From the NCBI RefSeq assembly GCF_000172995.2, contig NC_014729.1:1440001-1472000 (forward strand): DNA of 32,000 nt, given 5' to 3'. The notes beneath the pieces are model-generated. The model had not been told where the DNA came from. It ran no database searches and saw only the letters and a list, made by a program, of their open reading frames with translations. The position numbers were made by a program, and so were the translations under genes. This DNA is from Halogeometricum borinquense DSM 11551. GTDB taxonomy: Archaea; Halobacteriota; Halobacteria; Halobacteriales; Haloferacaceae. Shown piece after piece: positions 1,404 to 32,000 of the stretch (the stretch's first letter is position 1; every line of letters starts with the position of its first letter).

Positions 1404-1904
1404 ATGTCAACTGGCACGGTTGCGACGTTCGAAGCGTCTCTCGACCGCCTCGACGTGGACTGGACACACGCGTCGGCGGCCGAGTTCGAGACGGTCCTTC
1501 GGGACGTGTGTTCGGACCCGACCATCGGGGTTCCTCTCACACACGACGTGACACTCCCCGACTGGGTGAATACTGACCCGACACCCGACGACCTTCGCAC
1601 AGCGGCGACGGGTGTCACGGAAGCGGGTCTGGGAATCGCCGACTACGGTAGTGTCGTCTTGCAGGGGACGCCGGACGGCATCGAACCTGTTAGCCTGTTC
1701 AGTGACCGCCACGTAGCGGTCCTTCGGAAGTCGGACATTGCGCCCGGAATGGGTGCGGCGTTCGAGTGGTTGGGCGAGACGTTTCGGACGGGCCATTCCT
1801 CGGCGATCATCGCAACCGGTCCCAGTGCGACCGCCGACATGGGCGCGCTCGTGAAGGGTGCCCACGGTCCCAAAGCGGTTCACGTGGTGATTCTCGATGA
1901 GTGA
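1404..1904 (+). CDS. lutC: LUD-domain protein, LutC/YkgG-like lactate utilisation protein C
   Basis: LUD-type sequence (GIADYGSVVLQ, SAIIATGPSATADMGALVKGAHGP). The stop overlaps the next gene's start by 8 nt (ATGAGTGA at 1897-1904). I chose ATG 1404 (MSTGTVATFE); in-frame alternatives are ATG 1377 and TTG 1353. Confidence 0.75.
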   Translation: MSTGTVATFEASLDRLDVDWTHASAAEFETVLRDVCSDPTIGVPLTHDVTLPDWVNTDPTPDDLRTAATGVTEAGLGIADYGSVVLQGTPDGIEPVSLFSDRHVAVLRKSDIAPGMGAAFEWLGETFRTGHSSAIIATGPSATADMGALVKGAHGPKAVHVVILDE

Positions 1905-4116: not shown

Positions 4117-4230
4117 TTCACCGATACTGACAGATCGTCTGACGCTCGTCAGCCGTCTTCGCGCCCGTTGGACGGTTCTGACGCACCGAGGCTACGAACA
4201 ATTAAGGCGGATGCCTTCAAGAGTCTGCAC

Positions 4231-4527
4231 ATGGAAGGGACTCCCGAAGAGTTGACGACACTCGTCGGGCGCGAGGTCTACTCGAACAACGGCGTATTCG
4301 TCGGGGAGGTTGACGACATTCGACTCGACCTCAACCGGCAGGCCGTCACCGGACTCGCGCTTAGCAGACTCAACGACGAACTGTTTCAGAGCCGTGTCGA
4401 ACCGGGTAAAGGCGTACTTATTCCGTACCGGTGGGTTCGCGCCGTCGGCGACGTTATCCTCATCAACGACGTAGTCGAACGGCTGAAACGACCTGACGAA
4501 GAAGAAGAATCGACGCTCGTCGCCTGA
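4231..4527 (+). CDS. PRC-barrel domain protein
   Basis: LVGREVYSNNGVFVGEVDDIRLDLNRQAVTGLAL ... IPYRWVRAVGDVILI matches the PRC-barrel pattern, followed by an acidic tail. ATG 4231 lies about 30 nt downstream of the TATA-like CAATTAAGG. The track ORF starts at an upstream TTG (4168). Confidence 0.7.
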   Translation: MEGTPEELTTLVGREVYSNNGVFVGEVDDIRLDLNRQAVTGLALSRLNDELFQSRVEPGKGVLIPYRWVRAVGDVILINDVVERLKRPDEEEESTLVA

Positions 4528-4581
4528 CGCACTCTGTTCCTGTTGCGTCCTCCACCGCATCCGTTGATTTCGGTTCTCGCG

Positions 4582-6006
4582 TTAGCTTCCGTTTCCGCTC
4601 TCGCTTTCGACGCCCATCGCCGCGAATAGTTTTCGGCGGACTGCTTCTTCGGTGAGTTGCAAGAGCGTGTCGCGGTTGTCGTCCGATGTCTCGATACCGG
4701 TGAAGATGCCGAGCGGAATCTCTACGTCGCCTTGCGTGGAGTGGCCGCCCGCTTCGCCGATACCCTCGAAGGCGTCCTGCAGGACGTTCCCGATATTCAT
4801 CCGGATATCCTTCGACCGAGCCGAGAGGTAGATGTTGTCGTCAACGATACCGAAGACGGCGGTCGTCGTCACGCCTTCGAGATTGAGGAGATGTTGGGCT
4901 GCCTGCCCGAGGGCGTCTCTGTCACGGATGAACCCGGCGTTCGAGACGAGATGACTCCCCTGTACGTCGCGGTTCTGGATGGCTTCTGCGAGTACGTCTA
5001 ACGTCTCGGGCGACATCGACGGCGACTCTACCTGTTCGAGCGTGTCGTGATCTGCGAACGGGTAGAGATACGCTGCGGCGGTCAAGTCTGCTGGCGTCGT
5101 CTCGCGTTTGAAGTCAAGCGTCTCCGCGCGGATTCCGTACAGCAGGGCCGTGGCGACGGCCTCGCTGGGGCTGATGTTGAACTCTTGGATGTACTTCGTG
5201 AGGATAGTCGAGGTTGAGGAGACGTTCGGCCGAACGTCGATAAACACCGGATCGATGCCCTCGCCCGGCTCGAAGTGGTCGATGAAAATGTCCACGTCGG
5301 TGCCGATGTCGGGTTCGACCGACTTCATGTGGTCAACCAACGCGACCGACCCGTATTCGCGCAGGTCCGGCGCTTCGGCCAGCGGCGTGAGGTCGATGCC
5401 GAGAAGGTTGACGAACGCGCGGTTCTCCTGATGGCCCATCTCGCCGTCGTAGAGAATGTCTGCCTCGACGTCGTACTCCGCGGCGATGGCCTGTAAGGCG
5501 GCCGCGCTGGCGATGGAGTCGGGGTCGGGGTTGTCGTGCGTTAGAATGGCAAGCTTCCCCTCGGTCGATTCGAGGAGGTCGGCCAGTTGGCGCGCTTTGT
5601 ATTCGAGTTCGCCGGACTCCAGGGAGCGAAGTGCGGAGTCAGCGATAACTTCCGAGGGGTTAATAACGACGTCAGCGCCGAGTTCAGCGAGTTCGTCCTC
5701 TGAAACTGGGTCGGAGGCTCGAACGACGATGAACTGGTCGCTGTTTCGTTCGCGGATGGCGGAGACGGCCGCCTTGTTCGCCTCGACGTCGGATGCGAGG
5801 ATGAGGACTACGTCGCGCTCGGCAACGGCCTCGGAGACTTCGGGGTCCGAGATATCGGTCGTTTGCGCGTTCAAGTCTTGGTCGCGGAGGGCTTCGACTC
5901 GGCTCTCGTCTTTATCGAGGATAAGGACATCTTTCCCTTCCTCGGTGAGTTCCTCGGCCACCGCATGTCCCACGCTCCCACAGCCAAGAATTGCATAGGT
6001 GGACAT
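4582..6006 (-). CDS. TrkA-N (RCK_N, NAD-binding) domain fused to a DHH/DHHA1 phosphoesterase
   Basis: An N-terminal Rossmann GxGxxG (YAILGCGSVGHAV) is followed by DHH motif I (THDNPDPDSIASA), a motif II-like ALVDH, a motif III-like FIDHF and a DHHA1 GGH motif (GEAGGHSTQG). I chose ATG 6006 (MSTYAILG...); the track ORF starts 27 nt further upstream at 6033. Confidence 0.8.
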   Translation of the reverse strand: MSTYAILGCGSVGHAVAEELTEEGKDVLILDKDESRVEALRDQDLNAQTTDISDPEVSEAVAERDVVLILASDVEANKAAVSAIRERNSDQFIVVRASDPVSEDELAELGADVVINPSEVIADSALRSLESGELEYKARQLADLLESTEGKLAILTHDNPDPDSIASAAALQAIAAEYDVEADILYDGEMGHQENRAFVNLLGIDLTPLAEAPDLREYGSVALVDHMKSVEPDIGTDVDIFIDHFEPGEGIDPVFIDVRPNVSSTSTILTKYIQEFNISPSEAVATALLYGIRAETLDFKRETTPADLTAAAYLYPFADHDTLEQVESPSMSPETLDVLAEAIQNRDVQGSHLVSNAGFIRDRDALGQAAQHLLNLEGVTTTAVFGIVDDNIYLSARSKDIRMNIGNVLQDAFEGIGEAGGHSTQGDVEIPLGIFTGIETSDDNRDTLLQLTEEAVRRKLFAAMGVESESGNGS

Positions 6007-6182
6007 CGAGGATATCGTGACCCCAGCACTCATACTATCCTCACGTCTGGTCGGACGACACTTAACAGCACTCGTTTCCGAGAGTCTGCGAGACTAACGT
6101 ATCACGGTGTCACGATCCGGCTCAATCGGGTGCAACTTGCTCCCGTGTGTTGGTTTACCACCTACGGGGTTAAACGAAACAT

Positions 6183-6191
6183 CTTTACTTA
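6183..6191 (+). promoter_or_regulatory. TATA-like box upstream of tRNA-Lys
   Basis: CTTTACTTA is centred about 29 nt upstream of tRNA position 1. The same spacing is seen at tRNA-Leu and at several leaderless CDSs in this window. Confidence 0.4.
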
Positions 6192-6215
6192 CCCCGCAGA
6201 AACGAGAAATCGTAC

Positions 6216-6289
6216 GGGCCGGTAGCTCAGTTAGGGAGAGCGTCTGACTCTTAATCAGACGGTCAAGGGTTCAAATCCCTTCCGGCCCG
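6216..6289 (+). tRNA. tRNA-Lys (anticodon CUU)
   Basis: Hand-folded cloverleaf. The acceptor GGGCCGG pairs with CCGGCCC. D arm: GCTC/GAGC with the GG loop. Anticodon stem: TCTGA/TCAGA with loop CTCTTAA (CUU at positions 34-36). T arm: AAGGG-TTCAAAT-CCCTT. Discriminator G. No encoded CCA and no intron. Confidence 0.93.
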
Positions 6290-6420
6290 CTTCCTACGGA
6301 ATGACCAGGAAATGGTCAAGTGAGCGGTAGCGCTACCGACCACACCACGTTTCCGGTGAAATCTGTTTCAATACGCTCTAATATCCACGAATTCGGCAGA
6401 TCTGGTTGTCGGCTTTACCG

Positions 6421-6777
6421 TCAGACTTCGACGTGTTCGGTGGACTCGCGGTGTTCTGTCTCGGAACCGCGGCGCTGGCGTAGTTCGTCGTCGTGCGCTG
6501 CTGCATTCGCCATCGCTTCGGTGGTCACACCGACGAGTTCCGTCACGCGCCATGCGTTCCCGCGTGCCCCCACTGACTCCATCTGCAACGGGACGGTCGC
6601 ACCTGCCGGAAGTTCTGTCAACGTCTTTTCGACCGTCTCGTCCGCGAATTCGACAAGGTGACGCACCTCACACGACGCTTCGATGCGTACCGTCATCGCT
6701 CCGTGGTCGTTCATCGGCCACTCGATGCGAGCGATGATTGTCTCCGTGTGGGATGGGTTGGTGGTATGATACCACAT
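6421..6777 (-). CDS. Hypothetical protein (118 aa, orphan)
   Basis: Codon third positions are G/C-rich and the composition is acidic. A TATA-like TTTAATA (forward 6801-6807) is centred about 27 nt upstream of the ATG. I recognise no family motif. Confidence 0.55.
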   Translation of the reverse strand: MWYHTTNPSHTETIIARIEWPMNDHGAMTVRIEASCEVRHLVEFADETVEKTLTELPAGATVPLQMESVGARGNAWRVTELVGVTTEAMANAAAHDDELRQRRGSETEHRESTEHVEV

Positions 6778-6912
6778 GCCAGTTTACACTGACTACACTG
6801 TATTAAACTCTCGTTTGCAGAATATGAGTTTATTATCAAAGTATGAGACTCTGCTAGATACGTGAAGAAATCCACCGACTCAATAGACGTTCGTCTAGTT
6901 TTGCCGCCGAGA

Positions 6913-7398
6913 CTAGTCGTCGAGTAATTCGTCCAGTAGGGTCTCTAACTCGTAGTTCTGCAAGACGCGTGCGCTGTCTCGGAGTGACGAGATGACGAAC
7001 GTGGAGTTCGTCCGGTCAACCTCGTCTATCGTCTCGAAGTCGGTGATGAGTCGTTCGACCATCTCCCGCCCCGAAAGGTGAGCGACGACGATGAAATCCG
7101 TTTCACCCATCGTGAAGTACGCCTGTGTGACGCCCTCTACATCGAGAATCTTCTCTTTGAAATCGTGGTGGGAGCCACTGTAGTCAGTGAGTATCTCCAC
7201 GACGACGGTGACGCCGAGTCCGACCTTTTCCAAATCGATGTCGTACAGGTCGTTCTTGATGACGCCCGCCTCGCGCAGATTGTTCAACCGATAGTGAATC
7301 GTTGAGACAGGAATACCGGTCTCTTCGTGCAGTTGTTCCGGGCTTCCCGTTTCGAGGTCAGATATCGCCTTCAGGAGGCGGATGTCGCGTTCGTCCAT
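6913..7398 (-). CDS. Lrp/AsnC family transcriptional regulator
   Basis: The N-terminal HTH (RDIRLLKAISDLETGSPEQLHEETGIPVSTIHYRLNNLREAGVI) is followed by a RAM/AsnC C-terminal domain (VTVVVEILTDY..., TQAYFTMGETDFIVVAHL). Confidence 0.9.
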   Translation of the reverse strand: MDERDIRLLKAISDLETGSPEQLHEETGIPVSTIHYRLNNLREAGVIKNDLYDIDLEKVGLGVTVVVEILTDYSGSHHDFKEKILDVEGVTQAYFTMGETDFIVVAHLSGREMVERLITDFETIDEVDRTNSTFVISSLRDSARVLQNYELETLLDELLDD

Positions 7399-7608
7399 GG
7401 CCGCGGTGTCTGTGAATACACGCCTTAGGGGTTGTATGTTCCGCCTCGTTTCTTAGGGTTCCCTGTCTTGTTTCAGCTTGACAGTGGGGTTACTCTGCAA
7501 ACAATTCGTATATTTCCCGATCTATAATGCGTCAATATGCCTCTATTTTGTATTCTAATCGAAGTTCTAGCGGACTCTTGTAGACAACTTTAACACAGGC
7601 CACCTCTG

Positions 7609-8583
7609 ATGAGGAGTACATCCATGTCGATTCGCACACGCTCTGACACGTCCAACTGGAACGCCCTCCTGTTCATCGCACTCTCGTGCTTCTGGGGGAC
7701 ATCGTTCGTCGCCATCGAGGCAGGCTTGGAATACTTCCCACCTCTGCTGTTCGCGGGGATTCGCTACGGGATTGCCGGACTCGCTATCCTCAGCTACGCT
7801 GTCGCCACGACCGACCGGTGGCACCCAAGCGGGAGAGACGAGTGGCTGAGTGCCGCCGTTGCTGGCGTGTTCATCATCGCCGCCTACCATGCGCTCCTCT
7901 ACATCGGTGAGATGTACGTCTCTGCGTCCGTTGCCGCCGTCGTCGTCAGCCTCGCGCCGGTGCTGACCGCCGTCTTTGCCGCCGGAATTCTCGGCCAGCC
8001 ACTCGATAAGATCGCTGGCGTTGGCTTCCTCCTCGGCATCGTCGGCGTCGTTATCGTCGCCAACCCGGACCCAGCTAACCTCCTCTCGACGAACCTCCTC
8101 GGCATCGTGCTCGTCCTTCTCAGTACGGCAAGTTTCGCCATCGGAGGCGTCCTCACCGAACCGCTTCGGACGTCGCTTCCGGCCGAGTCGATGCAGGCGT
8201 GGGCGATGCTCATCGGTGCCGGTGTCCTCTTCGTCGGTGCCGTCGCGCGCGGTGAGTCCCCTGCCACCATCGAGTGGACATCGACTGCCATCATCTCGCT
8301 CATGTACTTGACGTTCGTCTCCGGTGTCGTCGGCTTCCTCATCTACTTCGCGCTCCACGAACGCGTCGGCGCGACGGAGATCAACCTCGTCAGCTATCTC
8401 GAACCCGTTGTTGCCTCTCTCGCTGGTTGGGTCCTCCTCGGCCACGTCGTGAGTTCGACCACGCTCGTCGGCTTCGTCACTGTCTTCATCGGATTCGCTC
8501 TCGTCAAGCGCCACGCGATTCGCGCTCGCATCCTTGGTGACGTTCCCACCACGGCCACGGGTCACAGCTACGACGCCGACTGA
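7609..8583 (+). CDS. EamA/DMT-superfamily transporter
   Basis: Ten hydrophobic helices in a 5+5 arrangement (LLFIALSCFWGTSFVAIEAGL, LLFAGIRYGIAGLAIL, ... TLVGFVTVFIGFALV). ATG 7624 is an alternative start. The antisense 384-aa ORF is a shadow. Confidence 0.88.
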   Translation: MRSTSMSIRTRSDTSNWNALLFIALSCFWGTSFVAIEAGLEYFPPLLFAGIRYGIAGLAILSYAVATTDRWHPSGRDEWLSAAVAGVFIIAAYHALLYIGEMYVSASVAAVVVSLAPVLTAVFAAGILGQPLDKIAGVGFLLGIVGVVIVANPDPANLLSTNLLGIVLVLLSTASFAIGGVLTEPLRTSLPAESMQAWAMLIGAGVLFVGAVARGESPATIEWTSTAIISLMYLTFVSGVVGFLIYFALHERVGATEINLVSYLEPVVASLAGWVLLGHVVSSTTLVGFVTVFIGFALVKRHAIRARILGDVPTTATGHSYDAD

Positions 8584-11053: not shown

Positions 11054-12979
11054 TCAGTCCGCGAGGAAGTCGGGTTCGAGGCGCTTTTCGTCGTATTCGG
11101 CCTCGAGATGTTCACGGAACGCGTCGATAGACACGTCCTGCTCCTCGCGTTCCTGTCGGTCGCGTACCGAGATGGTGCCGGATTCCTCCTCGTTCTCGCC
11201 GACGATGAGCATGTACGGCACGTTGTCCTCCTGGCCCTCTCGAATCTTCCGTCCGAGCGTCCACGACCGGTCCTCGACGGAGACACGGAAGTCGCCGAGT
11301 TCGTTCTTCACGCGGTGGGCGTAGCCGAGTTGGTCGTCCGAGATGGGGAGGATGCGAACCTGCTCGGGTGCCAGCCAGAACGGGAACTTGCCGTTGAAGT
11401 GCTCGATGAGCACCATGAAGAATCGCTCGTAACTGCCGTAGAGGGCGCGGTGAATCATCACCGGACGGTGTTCCTCGTTGTCCTCGCCCGTATACGTCAG
11501 ATCGAACCGTTCGGGCATGTTGAAGTCAACTTGCACCGTCGGGCCGTCCCACTTGCGGCCGAGCGCGTCCTCGAACGAGAAGTCGATCTTCGGCCCGTAG
11601 AACGCGCCGTCGCCGGGTTCGAGGTCGTAGTCGATGTTCTGATTTTCCAGCACCGAGCGCAGTTGCGACTCGGACTGCTCCCAAATCTCGTCGCTGCCGA
11701 CGGATTTCTCCGGGCGCGTGGCGAGGGCGACGTGCGCCTCAAGTCCGAACGTGTCCAGCACCTCGTAGATGGAGTTCATCACCTGCCGAATCTCCTGCTC
11801 GATCTGCTCGGGGCGGCAGAACAGGTGGCCGTCGTCGATGGTGAACGACCAGACGCGCGAGAGACCCGACAGCTCGCCGCGCTGTTCTTTTCTGTAGACT
11901 TTCCCGTCCTCGAAGTAGCGAACGGGCAGGTCGCGGTACGACCACGAGTTCTGGTCGAAGATGGTCGCGTGGCCGGGGCAGTTCATCGGCTTCAGGCCGT
12001 ACTCCTCGTCGTTCACGTCGAGGAGGAACATATCGTCCACGTAGTTGTCGTAGTGGCCCGACTTCTTCCACAGTTCCGTGCGGAACAGATGCGGCGTCTC
12101 GACCGGTTCGTAATCGGCATCAAGGTTCAATGACTCCGCGAACTCGGACAGCTCAGAGAGGATCCGCTTGCCGTTCGGATGGTAGAGCGGCAGTCCCGGC
12201 CCCGTGACTTCGGGGATGGAAAAGAGATCCATCTCCCGGCCGATTTTCCGGTGGTCGCGCTCTTCGGCCTCCGCGCGGAGTTCCATATACTCTTTCAGGT
12301 CCTTCTCGGACTCGAACGCCGTGCCGTACACGCGCGTCAGCGTCTCGTTCTCCTCGTCGCCGCGCCAGTAAGCCGAGGAGATGTTGAGGAGTTCGACCGC
12401 GCCGATTTTCCCCGTCGATTCGACGTGCGGACCCTTACACAGGTCCTCGAACTCACCTTGGACGTAGAAGGAGAGTTCGTCGTCGCCGGCCGCCTCGTTC
12501 TCGAGGATGTCGCGCTTGTACGGGTTCTCCTCGTACAGTTCGAGGGCGTCCTCGCGCGACCGAAGTTCGCGTTCGACCGGGAGGTCTTCTTCGATGATCT
12601 CCTCCATCTCGTCCTCGATTGCTTCGAGGTCATCAGCGTCGAGATCGACGTTCGTTACGTCGTAGTAGAATCCCTCGTCCGTCGATGGGCCGATGGCGAG
12701 CTTTGCTTCGGGGTACAGACGCTGCAATGCTTGGGCGAAGACGTGTGCGGCGGTGTGGCGGAGGACGCGGAGGTATTCGTCACTCTGGTCCGTGACGATG
12801 ACGACTTGGGCACCGTCGTGGACGGGGGCGGCTTTGTCCACGAGTTCACCGTCTACGACGCCCGCGACGGTGTCCTCACCGAGTCCCGGTCCGATTTCGT
12901 AGGCGACGTCCTCGACCGTCGCACCCTCCTCGACAGACAGCTCCGAGCCGTCGGGAAGGTTCACAACGAGTTCACTCAT
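11054..12979 (-). CDS. thrS: Threonine--tRNA ligase
   Basis: 641 aa from ATG 12979 ([30 protein letters not shown], a TGS domain). It has the second-additional-domain HxxxH ([12 protein letters not shown]), a class II core ([39 protein letters not shown]) and a C-terminal anticodon-binding domain. The 74 codons upstream of 12979 in the track ORF are non-coding-like. Confidence 0.95.
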
Positions 12980-13103
12980 GTGCGTTCGGAATCGGAGCGT
13001 ACGAATAAGTGTTTTTGAAGGGCGCGAGTGGGTCGCACGGCCGTTCGGAACGCACCGTGTGAGTGGCCACACGCTTATCTTTCCAGCCACGGACAGACGA
13101 TGC

Positions 13104-14591
13104 ATGAGATTCGACCGGCAGTCGGGCGTTTTCGCGCACGTTCCGTCGCTCCCGGGCCCCCACGGAATCGGCGACCTCGGCGACGGCGCGCGCGCCTTCA
13201 TCGATTGGCTCGCCTCGGCCGAACAGTCGCTGTGGCAGTTCTGTCCGCTCGGTCCGACAGCGTCGATTCACGGCCACTCGCCGTACCAGTCGTACTCCGC
13301 GTTTGCGGGCAACCCACTACTCGTTGACCTCGATCAACTCCGCGAGGACGGCTATCTGACTGACGACGACCTCGAACCCGTTCCTGCATTCTCCGACCAC
13401 GAAATCGAGTACGACCGGGTAGCCGAGTACAAACGGGAGCAACTCCGAACCGCGCACGAACGCTTCCAGTCCGAGGCGACCACCGAGGACCGCGAGGCGT
13501 TCGACGCGTTCCGCGAACACGAGTCGTCGTGGCTGGACGGCTACGCTCTGTTCATGGCGCTCCGAACCCGCTACGACGGTGCGTGGACGACGTGGCCACA
13601 GGAGATTCGAACGCACGACGAGGCGGCCATCAATCGGCACCGCGAGGAACTCGCAGACGAGATTTCGTACCGGGAGTTCGCCCAGTTCGTCTTCGATACG
13701 CAGTGGCGCGAGTTGAAGGCGTACGCGAACGATCACGGCGTCAAACTCGTCGGCGACCTGCCTATCTACGTCGCCCTCGACAGCGCAGACGTGTGGGCCG
13801 CACCCGAGGCGTTCGATCTGACTGAGGAGAACGAACCCGTCGCTGTCGCGGGTGTCCCGCCAAATCCGAACGACGACGGCCAACGCTGGGGCAACCCCCT
13901 GTACGACTGGGACTACCTCCGCGAGAACGACTACGACTGGTGGATGGACCGCCTCGAACGACTGTTCGAACTCGTGGACGTGACCCGCATCGACCACTTC
14001 AAAGGCTTCGATGAGTACTGGGCTATCCCGGCGGACGCACACTCGCCCGCAGCGGGTGAATGGCGCGATGCCCCGGGACACGACTTCTTCGAGACCGTCG
14101 AGGACCAGTTCGGTGATCTGCCGTTCATCGTGGAAGATCTCGGGTTCCTCGATCAGCGTATGACCGACCTCCGCGACCGGTTCGGGTTCCCCGGCATGCG
14201 CGTCCCGCAGTACGCAAACTGGTGCCAAGAGGGAGATATGTACCAACCGATGCATTTCCCCGAAAACAGCGTCGGTTACACCTCGACGCACGACACGAAC
14301 ACGTTCGTCGGCTACTACCGCGATCTGCCGGCTGACCAGAAAGACTGCCTCCACTACAATATCGGTGCGGACGGCTCCGAGATTCACTGGTCTATCATCG
14401 ACGCCGTCTGGCGCTCGAACGCCGTCATCGCGTTCACGACGATACAGGATATTCTCGGCCTCGGCGCGGAGGCGCGCTTCAACGTTCCCGGTACTACTGA
14501 CGGAAACTGGCGGTGGCGGTGTACAGAGGAGGGATTCGACGAGGAGTTAGCGTCCCGACTGGCGAGGCTGACCGACGAACACATCCGGTGA
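13104..14591 (+). CDS. malQ: 4-alpha-glucanotransferase (amylomaltase, GH77)
   Basis: It carries [54 protein letters not shown] and YTSTHDTNT. Start at ATG 13104 (MRFDRQSG). Confidence 0.92.
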
Positions 14592-28552: not shown

Positions 28553-28861
28553 TCACCACGTCGGGGGGCGGAAGCCGTTCGCTTCCAGAATCTCTTTCCA
28601 CCGCTGTTGGATGCTGAGTCGCGTCACGTCCATCGCGTTGGCGACGCGGGATTGGGACCGCTCTTCGCCTGCGATGAGTGCGCCCGCGTAGAGACTCGCC
28701 GCCGCAACGGCCCGTTTCGACCGGTCGGCGTCCGGCACCTGTGAGAGAAACATATCGCTTGCGTACGACCGCGCTTCGGACCCGAGTTCGAGGCGGTCGG
28801 CCGCCTCCTCGATGCGCGTCAACCACTCTTCGTTGTCGACCCGGTCTCGGGCACTGTACAT
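28553..28861 (-). CDS. Stand-alone TFB-like single cyclin-repeat protein (102 aa)
   Basis: SKRAVAAASLYAGALIAGEERSQSRVANAMDVTRLSIQQRWKEILE aligns by eye with the second cyclin repeat of the TFB in this window ([46 protein letters not shown]). Start at ATG 28861. The rest of the 302-aa track ORF runs antisense through tRNA-Leu. Confidence 0.75.
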   Translation of the reverse strand: MYSARDRVDNEEWLTRIEEAADRLELGSEARSYASDMFLSQVPDADRSKRAVAAASLYAGALIAGEERSQSRVANAMDVTRLSIQQRWKEILEANGFRPPTW

Positions 28862-28981: not shown

Positions 28982-29066
28982 GCGCGGGTAGCCAAGCCTG
29001 GCCAACGGCGCAGCGCTTAGGACGCTGTCTCGTAGGAGTCCGCCGGTTCGAATCCGGTCCCGCGCA
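28982..29066 (+). tRNA. tRNA-Leu (anticodon UAG), class II with a long variable arm
   Basis: Hand-folded cloverleaf. The acceptor GCGCGGG pairs with CCCGCGC. The D arm is GCC(A)/GGC with the GG loop. The anticodon stem is CAGCG/CGCTG with loop CTTAGGA (UAG). The variable arm is 14 nt (CTC-GTAG-GAG hairpin). The T arm is GCCGG-TTCGAAT-CCGGT. Discriminator A. No CCA and no intron. Confidence 0.92.
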
Positions 29067-29101
29067 CTTCTCCGCTCTGAACGAACGTGAAGAGCGGGAA
29101 G
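29067..29101 (+). other. Bulged hairpin immediately 3' of tRNA-Leu
   Basis: CTTC-T-CCGCTC(T) pairs with (A)GAGCGG-GAAG, giving about 11 bp with one bulged T and a 12-nt loop, GAACGAACGTGA. Confidence 0.6.
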
Positions 29102-29169
29102 TGTGCAACGGCCGGTGAGAACCCTGCAAGGAACGCGCAGTGAACTGACGTGAGCGAGCATTTCTTGCT

Positions 29170-29193
29170 CCGGTTCGAATCCGGTCCCGCGCA
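29170..29193 (+). repeat. Exact 24-nt copy of the tRNA-Leu 3' end (att-like relic, copy 2)
   Basis: CCGGTTCGAATCCGGTCCCGCGCA is identical to 29043-29066. There is no 5' half of a tRNA upstream. Confidence 0.9.
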
Positions 29194-29224
29194 TTTTCTG
29201 TCCGAGCGATAGCGAGGACGAAAA
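29194..29224 (+). other. Bulged hairpin immediately 3' of repeat copy 2, homologous to the one after the tRNA
   Basis: TTTTC-T-GTCC pairs with GGAC-GAAAA, giving 9 bp with one bulged T at the equivalent place and a 12-nt loop, GAGCGATAGCGA. Eight of 12 loop positions match the first hairpin's loop. Confidence 0.6.
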
Positions 29225-29273
29225 TCGATACGAGCGGATTCGAAGCAGGGAACGGAGCGAAGCGGAGTGACTG

Positions 29274-29298
29274 CGGTTCGAATCCGGTCCCGCGCACT
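29274..29298 (+). repeat. Copy 3 of the tRNA-Leu 3' end (23 nt plus 2 nt of trailer identical)
   Basis: CGGTTCGAATCCGGTCCCGCGCA-CT matches 29044-29068. The upstream base differs, or one C is deleted. Confidence 0.88.
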
Positions 29299-29510
29299 CA
29301 AATCGCGCCCTTCGGTCACTTTTTCGTCCGGGTTCTTCCCAGCAGCTCACGGTTCTAATGTTCGCATTTTGCTTGGTCGTTCTCCATGGTGTTATCGAGT
29401 AACGGTTTCGTCCGAGACAGCGACCACTATCCAATTCCCAGAAGAGATCATGCGACTCCATTTTTCCATCCCACTTACCTTTTTGGTGGCTGGATAAGTT
29501 GAACCGGCTA

Positions 29511-32000
29511 ATGGCTGATGCCGACGCTCTCCACGATGCTCTACTAAATATCGGTGAGCAGACGAACGACGATATGAGCGAGAGAGACGTAGAAAACCTC
29601 TTTCTGGAACAAGGATTCTATAATGCTCTCGACTACGAAGGAACGGGTACTGACCTCAGAAGCGAGTTCACACTCCCGGACGACCGGCGACCAGATTACA
29701 TCACTCTTGACTCGAACGAGGCCGTCACCGCAGTCTACGAATTCAAGACGACCGGTCGAAGCCTCCCGCCTCACGAATCGCAACTGTTCCACTACATGGA
29801 CTACCTCCGGGCGGAGTACGGCGTCCTGACCAACGGAGAGCAGTTGCGACTCTACCGGCGCGGCGAAGACCGACCGCTCCTCGTCGTCTCCCTCGAATCG
29901 GTTACAGAGGGTGATGCCCGCGACCTCGTTAGTGCCCTCCAGAAGCGCGACTTCGACCTCACGGATCCGGACGACGTGAATCAGTTCCTCGCAGACCTCG
30001 ACCCGATTCCGCTCGACGCGCAGTCGGAACTCGGGCAGGAACACTTCTTCGATACGTTCCGACTGGAGGACGACAGCCCGTTCGCCGACCTCGTCACCGG
30101 GATGATGGACCTCCTGCATGAACTCCGGGACGAGAACGAGGCGAAGTTCGTGAAAGGCGCTTACGACTTCTGGGAGGCGACATACGCCGACGAGCCGGAC
30201 GAGGTGCCGAACTCATGGGACCCGTTCATCAACGGGAAGCAGTCGCTTCGAGACTTCATGTTCTGTCTGGAGAGCGGACACGCGCTTCTCGCACGGCTCC
30301 TACTAGCGAAGGCCACCGAGGACCACGATTTCTTCGCGGGCACTGGATACGATGGGATGGACGACTACTTCCGCGGGTTGCAGGGCTTCGGCGACACCAT
30401 CAACCTCGATGCATTCCCCGTCGCGGCGGACGACCTCATCGACGATATGCAGGAGCAGTTAGTCGAAGGGCTGTTTCAGGACGACATCTTCATCTGGTGG
30501 ACTGACGGATACAGAGAGCAGATTGATACTCAGCACGCGAGCGGGCCGAGCCGGTTCGAGGACGTAGCACGCGGATCCGGTGACGTGGAACGTGTCAGCG
30601 AGACTACTCGGGACCGCTTCAGCCGCGCCGTCGCCGAGGTGTTCTTCAACGTCCTACGGTTCGACTTCCAAGACGTGGAGGGCGATCTCCTCGGGGACCT
30701 CTACCAGCGGTATTTCGACCCGGAGACGCGCAAGGCACTCGGCGAGTTCTACACGCCACAGCCGGTCATCGACTACATCATGGACGGCGTCGGCTACGAG
30801 CGCGGCGTCTCGAACGAGCGACTCATCGACCCGTCGTGTGGGTCCGGGACCTTCCTCGTGGAGGCCGTCGAGCGGTACATCACCGACGTGGAGAACTTCG
30901 AGGACAACCCCGACTGGGAGGAGCATCTACGCGACCTCTGTACCCGCCCGCGCATTGTTGGGCTTGATATACACCCGTTCGCTGTTCTGATGGCACAGAT
31001 TCGCTTCGTGGTCGCTATCCTCCCGGCGTATCGAGAGGCGAAAACGCAGAATCCCGAGTTTACCATTCGGCGGCTCCCAATCTACCGAACCGACACCCTC
31101 CGAAACGAGCGGGAACTGACGGGCGCGGACCTCGGCGACGACGGCACCCGGCAGATGACCTTCGACGCGATGACCGAGGACGACCAAGACGTACGGATTC
31201 CCGTCCCGCTTCCGGTGGAAGTAGACGAGGACGAGGTCGCCGAAACCGAGGACGGCTTCCTCGTGCGCCGGGTTCGGATGCCGCTGTTCGACACGATTCA
31301 GTTGGAGACTGGCGTCAAGAACTTCGGGGAGTATTTCGCGGCCCTACAAGGCGTCTTGGACACCGTCAAGGACCATATGGCGCTGGCCGAGGAATTCGGC
31401 GGCGACTTCGACTGGGAATACAAGAGTGGGCTGGAGGAGCGCATCAACCAGCACACGTCGCGGGACTACTCTGGGGTAGAGGAGTTCTTCACACCCTACG
31501 TGAACGATATGCTGGAGAACGTGCGCTACCTGAAGGAGGAACACAACGACGGACGGCTGTTCAAGATGTTCGAGGACACCGTGCTCGCGCTCGTCGTGAA
31601 GAACTACATGGAGTACGACTACGTCGTGGGGAATCCGCCGTATGTGAATATCAAATATATCTCCGATACCGCGCAAGAACGCTACACCAGACTATACGAT
31701 TCAGCATTTGGGCGTTTTGACCTCTATGTTTTATTTATTGAGCGTGGACTGGAGATGCTAACTGAGGACGGCGAGTTAGGTTACATTACCTCGAATAAGT
31801 TTGCCCGTGCAGAGTATGGGAGAGAAATCAGGCGGTTAATCAGTTCGGAGTATTCCTTGGCGGAGTACATCGACTTTGGCGATACAGAGGTATTCAAGGA
31901 CGCAACTAATTACCCCTGTATTCTGTTTGTTGACCGTGATAGAAATAGAAAAACCGTCCCATATGCAAAAATTAGACGAGAACAAGATAATATCCTCGAT
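29511..32000 (+). CDS. Type IIG-like restriction-modification fusion protein (N-terminal PD-ExK nuclease + gamma-class N6-adenine DNA methyltransferase), 3' end beyond the window
   Basis: This ORF is not in the track because it has no stop inside the window. I translated 830 codons by hand from ATG 29511 and found no stop. The nuclease core is RRPDYITLDSNEAVTAVYEFK (PD...ExK), followed by GVLTNGEQLRLY as in HsdR-N-type nucleases. The FYTP motif is LGEFYTPQPV. SAM motif I is LIDPSCGSGTFLVEAV and motif II is IVGLDIHPFA. Catalytic motif IV is YDYVVGNPPYV (NPPY at 31632-31643). Confidence 0.85.
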   Translation, partial: MADADALHDALLNIGEQTNDDMSERDVENLFLEQGFYNALDYEGTGTDLRSEFTLPDDRRPDYITLDSNEAVTAVYEFKTTGRSLPPHESQLFHYMDYLRAEYGVLTNGEQLRLYRRGEDRPLLVVSLESVTEGDARDLVSALQKRDFDLTDPDDVNQFLADLDPIPLDAQSELGQEHFFDTFRLEDDSPFADLVTGMMDLLHELRDENEAKFVKGAYDFWEATYADEPDEVPNSWDPFINGKQSLRDFMFCLESGHALLARLLLAKATEDHDFFAGTGYDGMDDYFRGLQGFGDTINLDAFPVAADDLIDDMQEQLVEGLFQDDIFIWWTDGYREQIDTQHASGPSRFEDVARGSGDVERVSETTRDRFSRAVAEVFFNVLRFDFQDVEGDLLGDLYQRYFDPETRKALGEFYTPQPVIDYIMDGVGYERGVSNERLIDPSCGSGTFLVEAVERYITDVENFEDNPDWEEHLRDLCTRPRIVGLDIHPFAVLMAQIRFVVAILPAYREAKTQNPEFTIRRLPIYRTDTLRNERELTGADLGDDGTRQMTFDAMTEDDQDVRIPVPLPVEVDEDEVAETEDGFLVRRVRMPLFDTIQLETGVKNFGEYFAALQGVLDTVKDHMALAEEFGGDFDWEYKSGLEERINQHTSRDYSGVEEFFTPYVNDMLENVRYLKEEHNDGRLFKMFEDTVLALVVKNYMEYDYVVGNPPYVNIKYISDTAQERYTRLYDSAFGRFDLYVLFIERGLEMLTEDGELGYITSNKFARAEYGREIRRLISSEYSLAEYIDFGDTEVFKDATNYPCILFVDRDRNRKTVPYAKIRREQDNILD

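What the first reader, a model, noticed from the sequence alone, without database searches (positions are those of the whole stretch)
29511..32000. An ORF of more than 830 codons, missing from the track, encodes a nuclease-methyltransferase fusion (type IIG architecture) as the first gene after the att-like array
The six-frame track has no entry here because the ORF never reaches a stop inside the window. Hand translation gives a PD-(D/E)xK core (PDY...YEFK) followed by a TNG...RLY element, as in HsdR-N-type nucleases. A gamma-class N6-adenine methyltransferase follows, with FYTP, DPSCGSGTF, GLDIHP and a long acidic insertion of about 180 aa before GNPPY. A single-chain nuclease plus methylase is the type IIG (MmeI/Eco57I-like) layout. 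PglX-like BREX methylases share the methyltransferase part but normally lack the nuclease head. The target-recognition part and any partner genes lie beyond 32000, so the full system cannot be judged from this window.
Basis: partly seen in the sequence, partly recalled or inferred. Interest (0 to 1): 0.65.

Follow-up and report, generated by a model that had tools for sequence, protein, structure and literature searches.

The report
Mobile haloarchaeal type IIG restriction-methylase gene
The open reading frame is real and encodes the first 830 residues of a 1,250-residue single-chain nuclease-plus-adenine-methylase (type IIG-like restriction enzyme) of a family already catalogued in salt-loving archaea and their viruses; what is new is that this strain's copy has a recently swapped, AT-rich DNA-recognition cassette.

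Summary
Observation confirmed. Window 29511-32000 is one uninterrupted 830-codon frame, starting 214 bp after a tRNA-Leu(TAG) gene and two extra copies of its 3' end. The window comes from Halogeometricum borinquense. A RefSeq protein that is 100% identical over the 632 overlapping residues continues for 420 more and carries a TaqI-like recognition domain, so the gene is complete (1,250 aa). RefSeq starts it at Met199 and so omits the nuclease head.

Interpretation supported:
- The N-terminus is a PD-(D/E)xK nuclease. D62 and E77 are in 63/63 relatives, K79 in 62/63, and there is a QxxxY motif.
- The confident structure model best matches the single-chain nuclease-methylases DrdV, BsaXI and BpuSI.
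- The methylase is Eco57I-family, gamma-class.
- The "acidic insertion" is a short disordered loop plus a conserved beta-hairpin and helical bundle.
- No BREX or other partner genes occur in related loci.

The family is known. It has over 100 haloarchaeal homologs at 68-93% identity, probably corresponds to a REBASE cluster, and is annotated "type IIG" in Hafunaviridae viruses.

New details: the region after NPPY is a swappable cassette (at least 13 types). Against a sibling strain, identity falls from 99% to undetectable at position 31645/6, and GC3 falls from 0.79 to 0.36.

Activity in this strain is untested. Tables derived from REBASE list only CTAG methylation for it.

The parts
28982..29067 (+). 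tRNA-Leu(TAG), the integration target that carries the proximal att sequence
   Evidence: ARAGORN. The same tRNA lies upstream of the homologous gene in 10 other loci from several genera.
29173..29194 (+). att-like repeat 2, a copy of the tRNA 3' end with 1 mismatch in 22
   Evidence: The sibling strain lacks one 127-bp unit of this array.
29276..29297 (+). att-like repeat 3, an exact 22-nt copy of the tRNA 3' end
29511..32000 (+). Codons 1-830 of a 1,250-codon type IIG-like restriction-modification gene. The predicted stop is near 33263, outside the window.
   Evidence: Residues 199-830 are identical to RefSeq protein P0076.
29511..29945 (+). PD-(D/E)xK nuclease domain (residues 1-145): P61-D62 at 29691-29696, E77-F-K79 at 29739-29747, Q91xxxY95 at 29781-29795
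   Evidence: pLDDT is about 87-96 except for one loop at residues 51-60. Secondary structure is H4-17, H24-33, E63-66, E72-78, H86-99, E103-107, E111-116, E124-127, H133-143. Residue counts are and Pfam HSDR_N.
29958..30680 (+). All-helical connector between nuclease and methylase (residues 150-390)
   Evidence: Model. Residues W221, W236, D271 and W329-W330 are invariant in 63 relatives.
30681..31100 (+). SAM-binding half of the gamma-class N6-adenine methylase (residues 391-530): FYTP at 30747-30758, motif I DPSCGSGTF at 30828-30854, GLDIHP at 30960-30977
   Evidence: N6_Mtase and Eco57I in Pfam, alignment to CamA, invariant residues.
30821..31007 (+). Short recombination patch: 21 substitutions against the sibling strain in codons 437-499, where the gene is otherwise nearly identical
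   Evidence: Over all of codons 199-712 only 2 of 27 nucleotide differences change an amino acid.
31101..31610 (+). Family-specific insertion (residues 531-700): disordered acidic loop 537-557, beta-hairpin 560-591, helical bundle 593-698 with the conserved DGRLFK motif at 680-685
   Evidence: Model, composition, conservation of D680 (60/63), G681 (61/63) and R682 (59/63). The BREX-1 PglX model aligns to residues 617-816.
31632..31643 (+). Catalytic motif IV, NPPY (residues 708-711)
   Evidence: N, P and P are in 63/63 relatives.
31646..32000 (+). Start of the swapped, AT-rich specificity cassette (second half of the methylase fold, followed outside the window by the TaqI-like recognition domain)
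   Evidence: Identity to the sibling strain drops from 100% to 20-57% per 30-nt window at 31640-31646. GC falls from 0.60 to 0.428 and GC3 from 0.788 to 0.356. The family profile matches M.BseCI at 2.5e-64 over profile positions 676-1115.

Best explanation
The ORF is the 5' two-thirds of a solitary gene for a 1,250-aa single-chain restriction-modification enzyme of type IIG layout. In order, it has an HsdR-N-type PD-(D/E)xK nuclease (residues 1-145), a helical connector (150-390), and an Eco57I-family gamma-class N6-adenine methylase whose Rossmann fold is interrupted by a conserved hairpin-plus-helical-bundle insertion (391-830). Outside the window it continues with a TaqI-like target-recognition domain and a conserved C-terminal domain of about 140 aa.

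Inferred mechanism, by analogy with Eco57I, BpuSI, MmeI and DrdV: the recognition domain reads a short asymmetric site. With SAM, the methylase flips and methylates one adenine in that site on host DNA. On unmodified incoming DNA, the tethered nuclease cuts at a fixed distance from the site.

Shown here: the gene belongs to a family spread across Halobacteria and Hafunaviridae tailed viruses. It is carried as cargo of elements that integrate at tRNA genes. In this genome only a small islet remains between tRNA-Leu(TAG) and, by comparison with the sibling strain, dacZ.

The family has a strongly conserved scaffold (residues 1-715 and the last ~140) and an exchangeable cassette (residues ~716-1110). 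The H. borinquense DSM 11551-type allele is a recent recombinant. Its scaffold is about 99% identical at DNA level to that of a sibling strain. Its cassette is different, AT-rich and rare, so the two strains very probably recognise different sequences.

The confidence of 0.85 is for the architecture and family assignment. Confidence that the enzyme is an active restriction enzyme in this strain is lower, about 0.5-0.6.
For: Intact frame. It continues to 1,250 aa with a TaqI_C domain.

Methylase: Eco57I 6.8e-30, N6_Mtase 2.4e-16.

Nuclease: HSDR_N 5.9e-5 in this protein. HSDR_N_2 reaches 1.7e-11 in relatives. D62, E77 and Y95 are in 63/63 relatives, K79 in 62/63 and Q91 in 56/63.

Structure: pLDDT 85.8, pTM 0.89. 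Foldseek gives DrdV 1.2e-11, BsaXI 1.3e-11 and BpuSI 1.4e-7, each over about 850-880 columns. PADLOC REase_MTase_IIG models score up to 9e-33.

Purifying selection: dN/dS 0.06-0.11 along the scaffold, including the nuclease head.

Solitary gene: there is no conserved neighbour across 41 loci. In Halorussus marinus the gene sits alone between tRNA-Leu and dacZ.

Mobility: direct repeats of a tRNA 3' end bound 9-15 kb islands in 10 loci. These islands carry integrases and a prim-pol-like gene. Nineteen virus genomes carry a copy. In HJTV-3 it is annotated as a type IIG enzyme and sits next to a viral tRNA and an integrase.

Cassette: family identity to this protein is about 85-90% for residues 1-715, 15-45% for 716-1110 and 60-70% for 1111-1250. 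There are at least 13 cassette types. The DNA breakpoint against the sibling strain is at 31645/6, with a GC3 step from 0.79 to 0.36. The same AT-rich cassette inside a GC-rich scaffold is seen in other loci.
Against: No enzymatic activity has been shown for any member of this family in the papers I could read.

REBASE holds SMRT data for DSM 11551 (PMC10609329, Table S2). The one REBASE-derived table I found lists only M.Hbo11551I (CTAG, m4C) for that strain (PMC11033074). The gene may therefore be silent, or the recombinant may be inactive.

HSDR_N is below Pfam's curated cutoff in this particular sequence (23.5 against 25.1 bits).

Foldseek TM-scores are low (about 0.3) because domain placement differs from the solved enzymes. 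I could not inspect the residue-level structural alignment of the nuclease head.

The last 420 residues, the 3' cassette junction and the distal att site lie outside the window. They are inferred from a database protein and from the sibling strain.

There is no companion methylase for the second strand. That fits MmeI/DrdV-like enzymes, but how the host is protected is inferred, not shown.
Confidence: 0.85

Rival explanations
1. The gene is intact but functionally silent or crippled in this strain. It may be unexpressed, or the recent cassette swap may have produced a chimera that no longer methylates or cuts. In that case it is a decaying remnant of a mobile element rather than a working defence.
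For: REBASE has SMRT data for DSM 11551, yet only the CTAG m4C methylase carries a verified name for that strain in the table I could read. The surrounding element has been reduced to a small islet: the sibling strain's copy is about 4.9 kb and has no integrase. A few family members elsewhere are split or apparently frameshifted (L044; L028). In Hfx. volcanii, other annotated type IIG genes contribute nothing to the methylome (PMC5867850).
Against: The 1,250-codon frame is uninterrupted and all catalytic residues are intact. In the scaffold, 25 of the 27 nucleotide differences from the sibling allele are synonymous, which indicates continuing purifying selection. Absence from a review table is weak evidence of absence.
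Confidence: 0.25
2. The biological role is mainly selfish or offensive rather than host defence. The gene would act as an addiction module that stabilises the islet or mobile element carrying it. In viruses it would be a weapon or counter-defence: self-methylation against host restriction, or degradation of host or competitor DNA.
For: The gene survives alone where the rest of the element has been lost, as in L042, L039 and this window. It rides on integrative elements at several different tRNAs. It is present, with the nuclease motif intact, in 19 virus genomes. Published authors suggest a counter-defence or host-degradation role for virus-encoded R-M enzymes (PMC8651126; bioRxiv 10.1101/2025.11.08.687337).
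Against: Nothing here separates defence from addiction, and the two roles are not exclusive. No post-segregational killing has been shown for a single-chain enzyme of this family.
Confidence: 0.3
3. It is a PglX-like methylase of a BREX or related multi-gene defence system, with the partner genes lying beyond the window.
For: There are partial matches to PglX models: PADLOC PglX 3.7e-30 and NCBIfam BREX-2 PglX 1.9e-27. Foldseek matches PglX/BrxX at about 1e-10.
Against: The scores are far below the curated cutoffs (95.5 bits against 400; 47.8 against 500) and cover only the methylase core. PglX lacks the N-terminal PD-(D/E)xK head that is invariant here. In the sibling strain and in 40 other loci there is no pglZ, brxC, brxL or helicase neighbour.
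Confidence: 0.02
4. It is a pseudogene or an annotation artefact: only the part from Met199 onward is a real gene, as in RefSeq, and the upstream 198 codons are non-coding.
For: The RefSeq model P0076 begins at residue 199 of the window ORF.
Against: Codons 1-198 show dN/dS of 0.07-0.11 against five genera, the same as the rest of the gene. Met1 aligns in all 63 relatives. The nuclease domain is modelled with high confidence. The sibling strain's protein P0001 and most homologs are annotated from the equivalent of Met1.
Confidence: 0.03

Closest known systems
Hafunaviridae 'type IIG restriction modification enzyme' (e.g. Haloarcula virus HJTV-3 gp40, 1,288 aa; HRTV-5 ORF42) and the cellular haloarchaeal proteins annotated 'Eco57I restriction-modification methylase domain-containing protein'
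   Same: They are the same protein family. Identity is 67-93% over residues 1-808 or more, with the same nuclease motif, insertion, NPPY and overall length. The 45-member 'g7-eco57' cluster in Anton & Roberts 2023, which includes H. borinquense wsp4, probably corresponds to this family.
   Different: This allele carries a cassette (residues ~716-1110) whose nearest known relatives are only 55-62% identical. None of these proteins has been characterised biochemically in the papers I found.
Eco57I / BpuSI-type type IIG enzymes (BpuSI structure 3S1S)
   Same: They share the domain order: N-terminal PD-(D/E)xK nuclease, helical connector, gamma-class N6-adenine methylase, then C-terminal recognition domain. 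This protein matches Pfam Eco57I at 104.8 bits and BpuSI by Foldseek at 1.4e-7 over 849 columns.
   Different: This protein is about 250-380 residues longer. It has a hairpin and helical-bundle insertion of about 170 aa before NPPY and an extra conserved C-terminal domain. From my own knowledge, Eco57I and BpuSI have companion methylase genes; no companion is present here.
MmeI / DrdV (type IIL single-chain enzymes; structures 5HR4, 7LO5)
   Same: Both are solitary single-chain nuclease-methylase-recognition enzymes with no companion methylase. DrdV is the best Foldseek match (1.2e-11, 875 columns).
   Different: Of the MmeI Pfam domains only MmeI_Mtase matches, at 33.9 bits and under stronger Eco57I and N6_Mtase hits. 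No MmeI N-terminal, helical, TRD or C-terminal domain was reported. The recognition domain here is TaqI_C type. Sequence identity to DrdV is about 11-13%.
M.BseCI, CamA and M.TaqI (monomeric gamma-class adenine methylases with a TaqI-like recognition domain)
   Same: The exchangeable cassette (NPPY half of the fold plus recognition domain) is homologous to these enzymes. Profile E-values are 2.5e-64 for M.BseCI, about 1e-62 for CamA and about 3e-14 for M.TaqI.
   Different: Those enzymes are stand-alone methylases of about 420-585 aa, with no nuclease, connector, insertion or C-terminal domain.
BREX PglX / BrxX
   Same: They share the methylase core and part of the helical region before NPPY (residues 617-816 align to the BREX-1 model). 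Foldseek gives about 1e-10.
   Different: PglX has no nuclease head, works with PglZ, BrxC and BrxL, and its curated model cutoffs are missed by a wide margin. No such neighbours are present.

Membership tests
Type IIG restriction-modification enzymes (single-chain REase + MTase) | Nuclease and methyltransferase domains in one polypeptide | tested here: met
   One uninterrupted frame. Nuclease domain at residues 1-145 and methylase at 391-830 in a single confident model. The best full-length structural matches are DrdV, BsaXI and BpuSI.
Type IIG restriction-modification enzymes (single-chain REase + MTase) | Intact nuclease catalytic residues (PD...(D/E)xK) | tested here: met
   D62 and E77 are in 63/63 relatives and K79 in 62/63. 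The Q91xxxY95 motif is present in 56/63 and 63/63.
Type IIG restriction-modification enzymes (single-chain REase + MTase) | N6-adenine methylase motifs in gamma-class order (FxGxG-type motif I before NPPY, recognition domain after) | tested here: met
   FYTP 413-416, DPSCGSGTF 440-448 and NPPY 708-711. Eco57I 104.8 bits and N6_Mtase 60.4 bits. TaqI_C lies after NPPY.
Type IIG restriction-modification enzymes (single-chain REase + MTase) | Target-recognition domain in the same chain | tested here: met
   It lies outside the window. P0076, identical to the window over the 632 overlapping residues, has TaqI_C at 46.3 bits against a cutoff of 26.5, at residues 921-1078 of the full protein.
Type IIG restriction-modification enzymes (single-chain REase + MTase) | Sequence-specific methylation, and cleavage at or near the site | not testable with these tools
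   This needs a methylome and biochemistry. REBASE-derived tables name only a CTAG methylase for this strain.
Pfam HSDR_N / HSDR_N_2 (HsdR N-terminal-type PD-(D/E)xK nuclease) | Score at or above Pfam's gathering threshold | tested here: inconclusive
   This protein scores 23.5 bits against 25.1 for HSDR_N, and 17.5 against 25 for HSDR_N_2. At E<=0.01, 21-23 of 31 close relatives match; at E<=0.001, 23 of 37 distant relatives match HSDR_N_2, best 1.7e-11.
MmeI family (type IIL) | MmeI-specific N-terminal, helical, TRD and C-terminal domains | tested here: not met
   Only MmeI_Mtase matches, at 33.9 bits, overlapping stronger Eco57I and N6_Mtase hits. No other MmeI domain is reported in 31 + 37 members.
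BREX PglX | Curated NCBIfam equivalog score, and genomic association with pglZ/brxC/brxL | tested here: not met
   Scores are 95.5 bits against 400 (BREX-2), 47.8 against 500 (BREX-1) and 43.7 against 900 (BREX-6). There are no BREX genes in the sibling locus or in any of 41 loci.
Type I (HsdR/HsdM/HsdS) or type ISP | SF2 helicase/translocase motor; separate or Type I-style S domains | tested here: not met
   There is no helicase or ResIII domain and no Methylase_S domain in this protein or in P0076, and no hsdS or hsdR neighbours.
Type IIB (BsaXI-like) | Separate S subunit or paired Type I-like recognition domains | tested here: not met
   There is a single fused TaqI_C domain and no Methylase_S, and no adjacent S gene in the sibling or other loci. 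Whether it cuts on both sides of the site cannot be tested here.
tRNA-targeting integrative element (genomic island) | Direct repeats of the tRNA 3' end flanking the insert, plus a tyrosine integrase | tested here: inconclusive
   The proximal repeats are in the window. The distal repeat is seen only in the sibling strain (L039 14562-14611, 94% over 50 bp). No integrase is present in the sibling islet. Complete versions with an integrase occur in other genomes.

The most novel reading that the evidence does not exclude
The family may be a natural plug-in restriction platform. An unusually constrained nuclease-connector-methylase scaffold (dN/dS about 0.06-0.11, roughly 80-90% identical across genera and still 67% identical to the virus copy) would repeatedly receive new specificity cassettes. 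The exchange would occur by recombination exactly at the NPPY motif and at the start of the C-terminal domain. The cassettes would be drawn from a low-GC gene pool. The whole gene would shuttle between haloarchaeal chromosomes, at tRNA hot spots such as tRNA-Leu(TAG)/dacZ, and Hafunaviridae viruses, serving defence in cells and counter-defence or attack in viruses. Under this reading the two H. borinquense strains are a natural before-and-after pair for one cassette swap.
Probability: 0.35. Interest if true: 0.55.

Novelty: new member of a known kind. Interest (0 to 1): 0.3.

Why it matters
For genome annotation, the RefSeq model of this gene starts at Met199. That removes the nuclease head and makes a restriction enzyme look like a plain methylase.

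For biology, the gene belongs to what is probably the most widespread type IIG family in Halobacteria and their tailed viruses, and no member has been characterised.

The two H. borinquense alleles share a near-identical scaffold and differ in one cassette. They are a ready-made experiment on how single-chain restriction enzymes change specificity. The scaffold-and-cassette design could also guide engineering of salt-active enzymes with new specificities.

It bears on barriers to gene exchange between haloarchaeal strains as well. None of this changes how restriction-modification is understood.

Tried and rejected
**Sequence beyond 32000.** An exact-protein look-up of P0076 found no contig. 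The genome-collection scan returned 38 loci, none from H. borinquense. I therefore used the database protein and the sibling strain L039.

**Hfx. volcanii HVO_A0006 / HVO_A0237.** I checked whether these are a split member of this family. They belong to a different, MmeI-like family that is rare in Halobacteria.

**Link to enzymes with known motifs.** I tried to connect the family to named haloarchaeal type IIG enzymes (HspGSL19II GTCCAG, Hsi33800V CTCCAG). The plasmid that carries Hsi33800V was not among the 40 best PLSDB hits listed.

**Methylome of DSM 11551.** The supplements of Blow et al. 2016 do not mention Halogeometricum.

**First structure model.** The first AlphaFold run, on a shallow alignment, was poor (pLDDT 53.5). 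A 63-sequence alignment replaced it.

**Conserved promoter or element end.** The ~215 bp between the last att copy and the ATG is not conserved between loci. The bacterial-type promoter and terminator scan found nothing and does not apply to archaea.

**Partner genes.** ORF clustering across 41 loci found none.

**Cassette donor.** The nearest relatives of the cassette are only 55-62% identical and lie on short contigs.
Full report

Yes. Window 29511-32000 translates on the + strand as 830 codons without a stop. The ORF lister does not show it because that tool omits ORFs that run off an end of the window.
- PDY 61-63, EFK 77-79, TNG 107-109
- FYTP 413-416, DPSCGSGTF 440-448, GLDIHP 484-489, NPPY 708-711

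tRNA-Leu(TAG) is at 28982-29067. Two more copies of its last 22 nt follow at 29173-29194 and 29276-29297. The ORF starts 214 bp after the last copy, so it is indeed the first gene after the att-like array.

**2. Where the window comes from, and whether the gene is complete**

A protein search returned more than 100 haloarchaeal proteins of about 1,300 aa at 68-93% identity. One RefSeq protein of Halogeometricum borinquense, P0076 (1,052 aa, on a 2.82-Mb contig), is 100% identical to the window ORF. The overlap runs from ORF residue 199 to residue 830, 632 residues in all.

Joining the two gives a 1,250-aa protein. P0076 carries a TaqI_C recognition domain above Pfam's threshold (46.3 bits against 26.5), at residues 921-1078 of the full protein.

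RefSeq starts the gene at Met199 and so leaves out the nuclease head. That start is wrong:
- Codons 1-198 have dN/dS of 0.07-0.11 against homologs from five genera, the same as codons 199-712.
- Met1 aligns in all 63 relatives.
- The sibling strain's protein P0001 starts at the same Met1 and has the same N-terminal sequence.

**3. What the domains are**

*Methylase.* Pfam gives Eco57I (104.8 bits, cutoff 25.3), N6_Mtase (60.4 bits) and a weaker MmeI_Mtase hit. PADLOC matches type II methylase and type IIG models, with E-values down to 4.2e-39 and 9e-33.

*Nuclease head.*
- HSDR_N scores 23.5 bits (E = 5.9e-5), just below the 25.1 cutoff.
- At E<=0.01, HSDR_N or HSDR_N_2 is matched by 21-23 of 31 close relatives. 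At E<=0.001, HSDR_N_2 is matched by 23 of 37 distant relatives (31-51% identity), best 1.7e-11.
- An exhaustive search with residues 1-200 found only 140 relatives among 1.84 billion representatives. Most are the N-termini of 1,200-1,400-aa proteins.
- Across 63 aligned relatives, D62 and E77 are in 63/63 and K79 in 62/63. A QxxxY motif follows, as in HsdR-type nucleases (that comparison is from my own knowledge): Q91 in 56/63 and Y95 in 63/63.

*Structure.* A first AlphaFold model on a shallow alignment was poor overall. A second model on the 63-sequence alignment is confident, with mean pLDDT 85.8 and pTM 0.89. It places D62 at the start of strand 63-66 and E77/K79 on strand 72-78, followed by helix 86-99 and strands 103-107, 111-116 and 124-127. 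This is the classic PD-(D/E)xK core.

Foldseek against the PDB ranks the following:

| Target | Kind | E-value | Aligned columns |
|---|---|---|---|
| DrdV 7LO5 | single-chain nuclease-methylase (type IIL) | 1.2e-11 | 875 |
| BsaXI 8W2P | single-chain nuclease-methylase (type IIB) | 1.3e-11 | 853 |
| BpuSI 3S1S | single-chain nuclease-methylase (type IIG) | 1.4e-7 | 849 |
| PglX 8C45 | methylase, no nuclease | 1.4e-10 | 693 |
| CamA 7RFL | methylase, no nuclease | 2.3e-9 | 433 |

PglX and CamA match only the methylase part. TM-scores are low (about 0.3) because the domains sit differently from the solved enzymes. I could not see the residue-level alignment. The second refutation scenario, that the head is not a nuclease fold, is therefore not supported.

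**4. The "acidic insertion"**

It is real in size. Motif I and NPPY are about 260 residues apart, against roughly 80-90 in CamA. It is not simply an acidic spacer:
- Only residues 537-557 are disordered.
- Residues 560-591 form a beta-hairpin.
- Residues 593-698 form a helical bundle that leads into strand 702-707 and NPPY.

Acidic content is 29% in residues 531-592 and 20% in 593-700, against 22% for the whole protein. The segment is conserved in distant relatives: D680 in 60/63, G681 in 61/63 and R682 in 59/63. NCBIfam's BREX-1 PglX model aligns to residues 617-816. So at least part of the segment is a shared feature of this methylase lineage.

**5. Partners and alternative classifications**

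The PglX models score far below their curated cutoffs (95.5 bits against 400). In the sibling strain the gene is followed by a 105-aa DUF3892-like ORF and then the housekeeping genes dacZ and mscS. Clustering all ORFs of 41 loci found no conserved neighbour. The only recurring neighbours are two kinds of integrase, a protein of about 200 aa, and the chromosomal flanks. In Halorussus marinus the gene sits alone between tRNA-Leu and dacZ.

No helicase, Methylase_S or MmeI-specific domains were found. The gene is therefore a solitary single-chain enzyme. It is Eco57I-family by its methylase. It resembles MmeI and DrdV only in lacking a companion methylase.

**6. Mobility**

Nearly every related locus has a tRNA gene nearby. 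In ten loci, direct repeats of a tRNA 3' end bound a 9-15 kb island that contains the gene. The tRNAs used include Leu-TAG, Ala-CGC, Val-CAC and Thr. The Halostella island carries a prim-pol-like gene and an integrase. The Hfx. volcanii strain has an integrase next to tRNA-Leu.

The tRNA-Leu(TAG)/dacZ site is occupied in about ten genomes from different genera. Short att arrays directly upstream of the gene recur at tRNA-Leu and at tRNA-Gly.

Against the sibling strain (L039), the comparison gives:
- The 9.7 kb of chromosome upstream is 99.6% identical.
- The window has one extra 127-bp att unit.
- A 50-bp copy of the tRNA 3' half lies downstream of the sibling's gene, which delimits an islet of about 4.9 kb.

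Nineteen Hafunaviridae tailed-virus genomes carry a homolog about 68% identical over at least 80% of the query, most of them annotated "type IIG restriction modification enzyme" by the depositors. In HJTV-3 it lies next to a viral tRNA-Thr and an integrase, and it keeps the nuclease motif and the insertion. Published work mentions such virus-encoded enzymes as possible counter-defence or as weapons against host or competitor DNA.

**7. Scaffold and cassette**

| Residues | Mean family identity to this protein |
|---|---|
| 1-715 | about 85-90% |
| 716-810 | about 45% |
| 811-1110 | 15-34% |
| 1111-1250 | 58-74% |

At a 60% identity threshold the middle region falls into at least 13 types. One type dominates (74 of 100 proteins). 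The DSM 11551-type cassette is a singleton.

At DNA level, the window and the sibling strain are 98.95% identical from 29170 to 31645, and no similarity is detected after that. In 30-nt windows, identity goes from 100% to 47% at 31640 and stays at 20-57%. That position is codon 710-712, the NPPY motif.

Composition changes at the same point. GC is 0.60 and GC3 0.788 before the breakpoint, against 0.428 and 0.356 after it. Other rare cassettes are also AT-rich inside GC-rich scaffolds, and GC3 rises again in the C-terminal domain:

| Locus | GC3 scaffold | GC3 cassette | GC3 C-terminal 130 codons |
|---|---|---|---|
| L008 | 0.84 | 0.36 | 0.88 |
| L026 | 0.67 | 0.36 | 0.55 |
| L001 | 0.75 | 0.51 | 0.75 |

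The family profile over the cassette region (positions 676-1115) matches the stand-alone methylases M.BseCI (2.5e-64) and CamA (about 1e-62). So the cassette is the NPPY half of the fold plus the recognition domain.

Its nearest relatives are only 55-62% identical, on short metagenomic contigs. One of these is a 46%-GC archaeal contig with a split family member. This is consistent with import from a low-GC pool but does not prove it.

A second, small mosaic patch lies at codons 437-499: 21 substitutions in 187 bp. Over all of codons 199-712, only 2 of 27 nucleotide differences change an amino acid.

**8. How it most likely works**

*Shown here:* the domain architecture, intact catalytic residues, purifying selection, solitary status, mobility, and cassette exchange.

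*Inferred from established knowledge of Eco57I, BpuSI, MmeI and DrdV:* the recognition domain binds a short asymmetric site. The methylase modifies one adenine using SAM. The tethered nuclease cuts unmodified DNA at a fixed distance. The two H. borinquense alleles recognise different sites.

*Not shown:* any activity. REBASE holds SMRT data for DSM 11551, yet the REBASE-derived table I could read names only a CTAG m4C methylase for that strain. I therefore give about one chance in four that the gene is silent or inactive there.

**9. Novelty**

The gene is in RefSeq, although with a truncated start. The family is probably catalogued in REBASE as a 45-member "g7-eco57" cluster that includes H. 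borinquense wsp4. It is annotated as type IIG in viruses. Halobacteria are known to average more than one type IIG gene per genome. Domain swapping is an established way for restriction enzymes to change specificity (my own knowledge).

The finding is therefore a correct identification of a new member of a known kind. The useful extras are a corrected gene start, a very clean natural cassette swap marked by a GC3 step, and the sharing of one scaffold between chromosomal tRNA islets and viruses.

Noticed in passing
window 28982-29297; L039 9599-9786: The att array differs between two strains of the same species. The window has the tRNA plus two extra 3'-end copies; the sibling strain has one fewer 127-bp unit. 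Similar arrays with 94-140 bp spacing sit next to the homologous gene at tRNA-Gly (L008, L029) and at the far end of the Hfx. volcanii island (L040 16693-16937).
   Followed up: partly
window 30821-31007: Twenty-one substitutions against the sibling strain are packed into codons 437-499, in a gene that is otherwise nearly identical up to the breakpoint. This looks like a short gene-conversion tract from another family member.
   Followed up: partly
window 29511-30107 (codons 1-198): The RefSeq protein for this gene (P0076) begins at Met199 and so lacks the whole nuclease domain. The sibling strain's protein and most homologs are annotated from Met1.
   Followed up: yes
window about 28553-28861 (- strand); L039 9170-9478; L040 6418-6726; L042 5249-5599: A short TFIIB-like ORF (102-116 aa, Pfam TFIIB) lies just upstream of tRNA-Leu(TAG) at this chromosomal site in several genera. 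In the window, the mechanical ORF list extends it to 302 aa across the tRNA, which is probably spurious.
   Followed up: no
L043 (Haloarcula virus HJTV-3) 1672-7828; L033 1958-2029 and 15727-15800: In the virus the homolog lies near a viral tRNA-Thr(GGT) and an integrase. One cellular locus (L033) has the gene between two tRNA-Thr(GGT) copies 13.7 kb apart. This hints that the same cassette moves between viruses and chromosomes.
   Followed up: partly
L044 487-4221; L028 10001-13911: Some family members look disrupted. L044 has a stop that splits the gene just before the helical bundle. In L028 (Halorutilales chromosome) the simple ORF caller recovered only the 3' part of the gene (12169-13911), which suggests a frameshift.
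   Followed up: no
PMC10609329 Table S2: In the REBASE-based cluster table, H. borinquense wsp4 is counted in the large g7-eco57 cluster but DSM 11551 is not, although the two proteins share a near-identical 712-aa scaffold. Either REBASE lacks this gene for DSM 11551 or it was clustered elsewhere.
   Followed up: no
L039 13969-14286 (- strand): The only other ORF inside the sibling strain's islet is a 105-aa protein with a DUF3892 match (25.0 bits against a cutoff of 22.3). Its function is unknown. It is probably also present just beyond the window.
   Followed up: no
window 6216-6290: A second tRNA gene, tRNA-Lys(CTT), lies in the window. I did not check it for att-like repeats.
   Followed up: no
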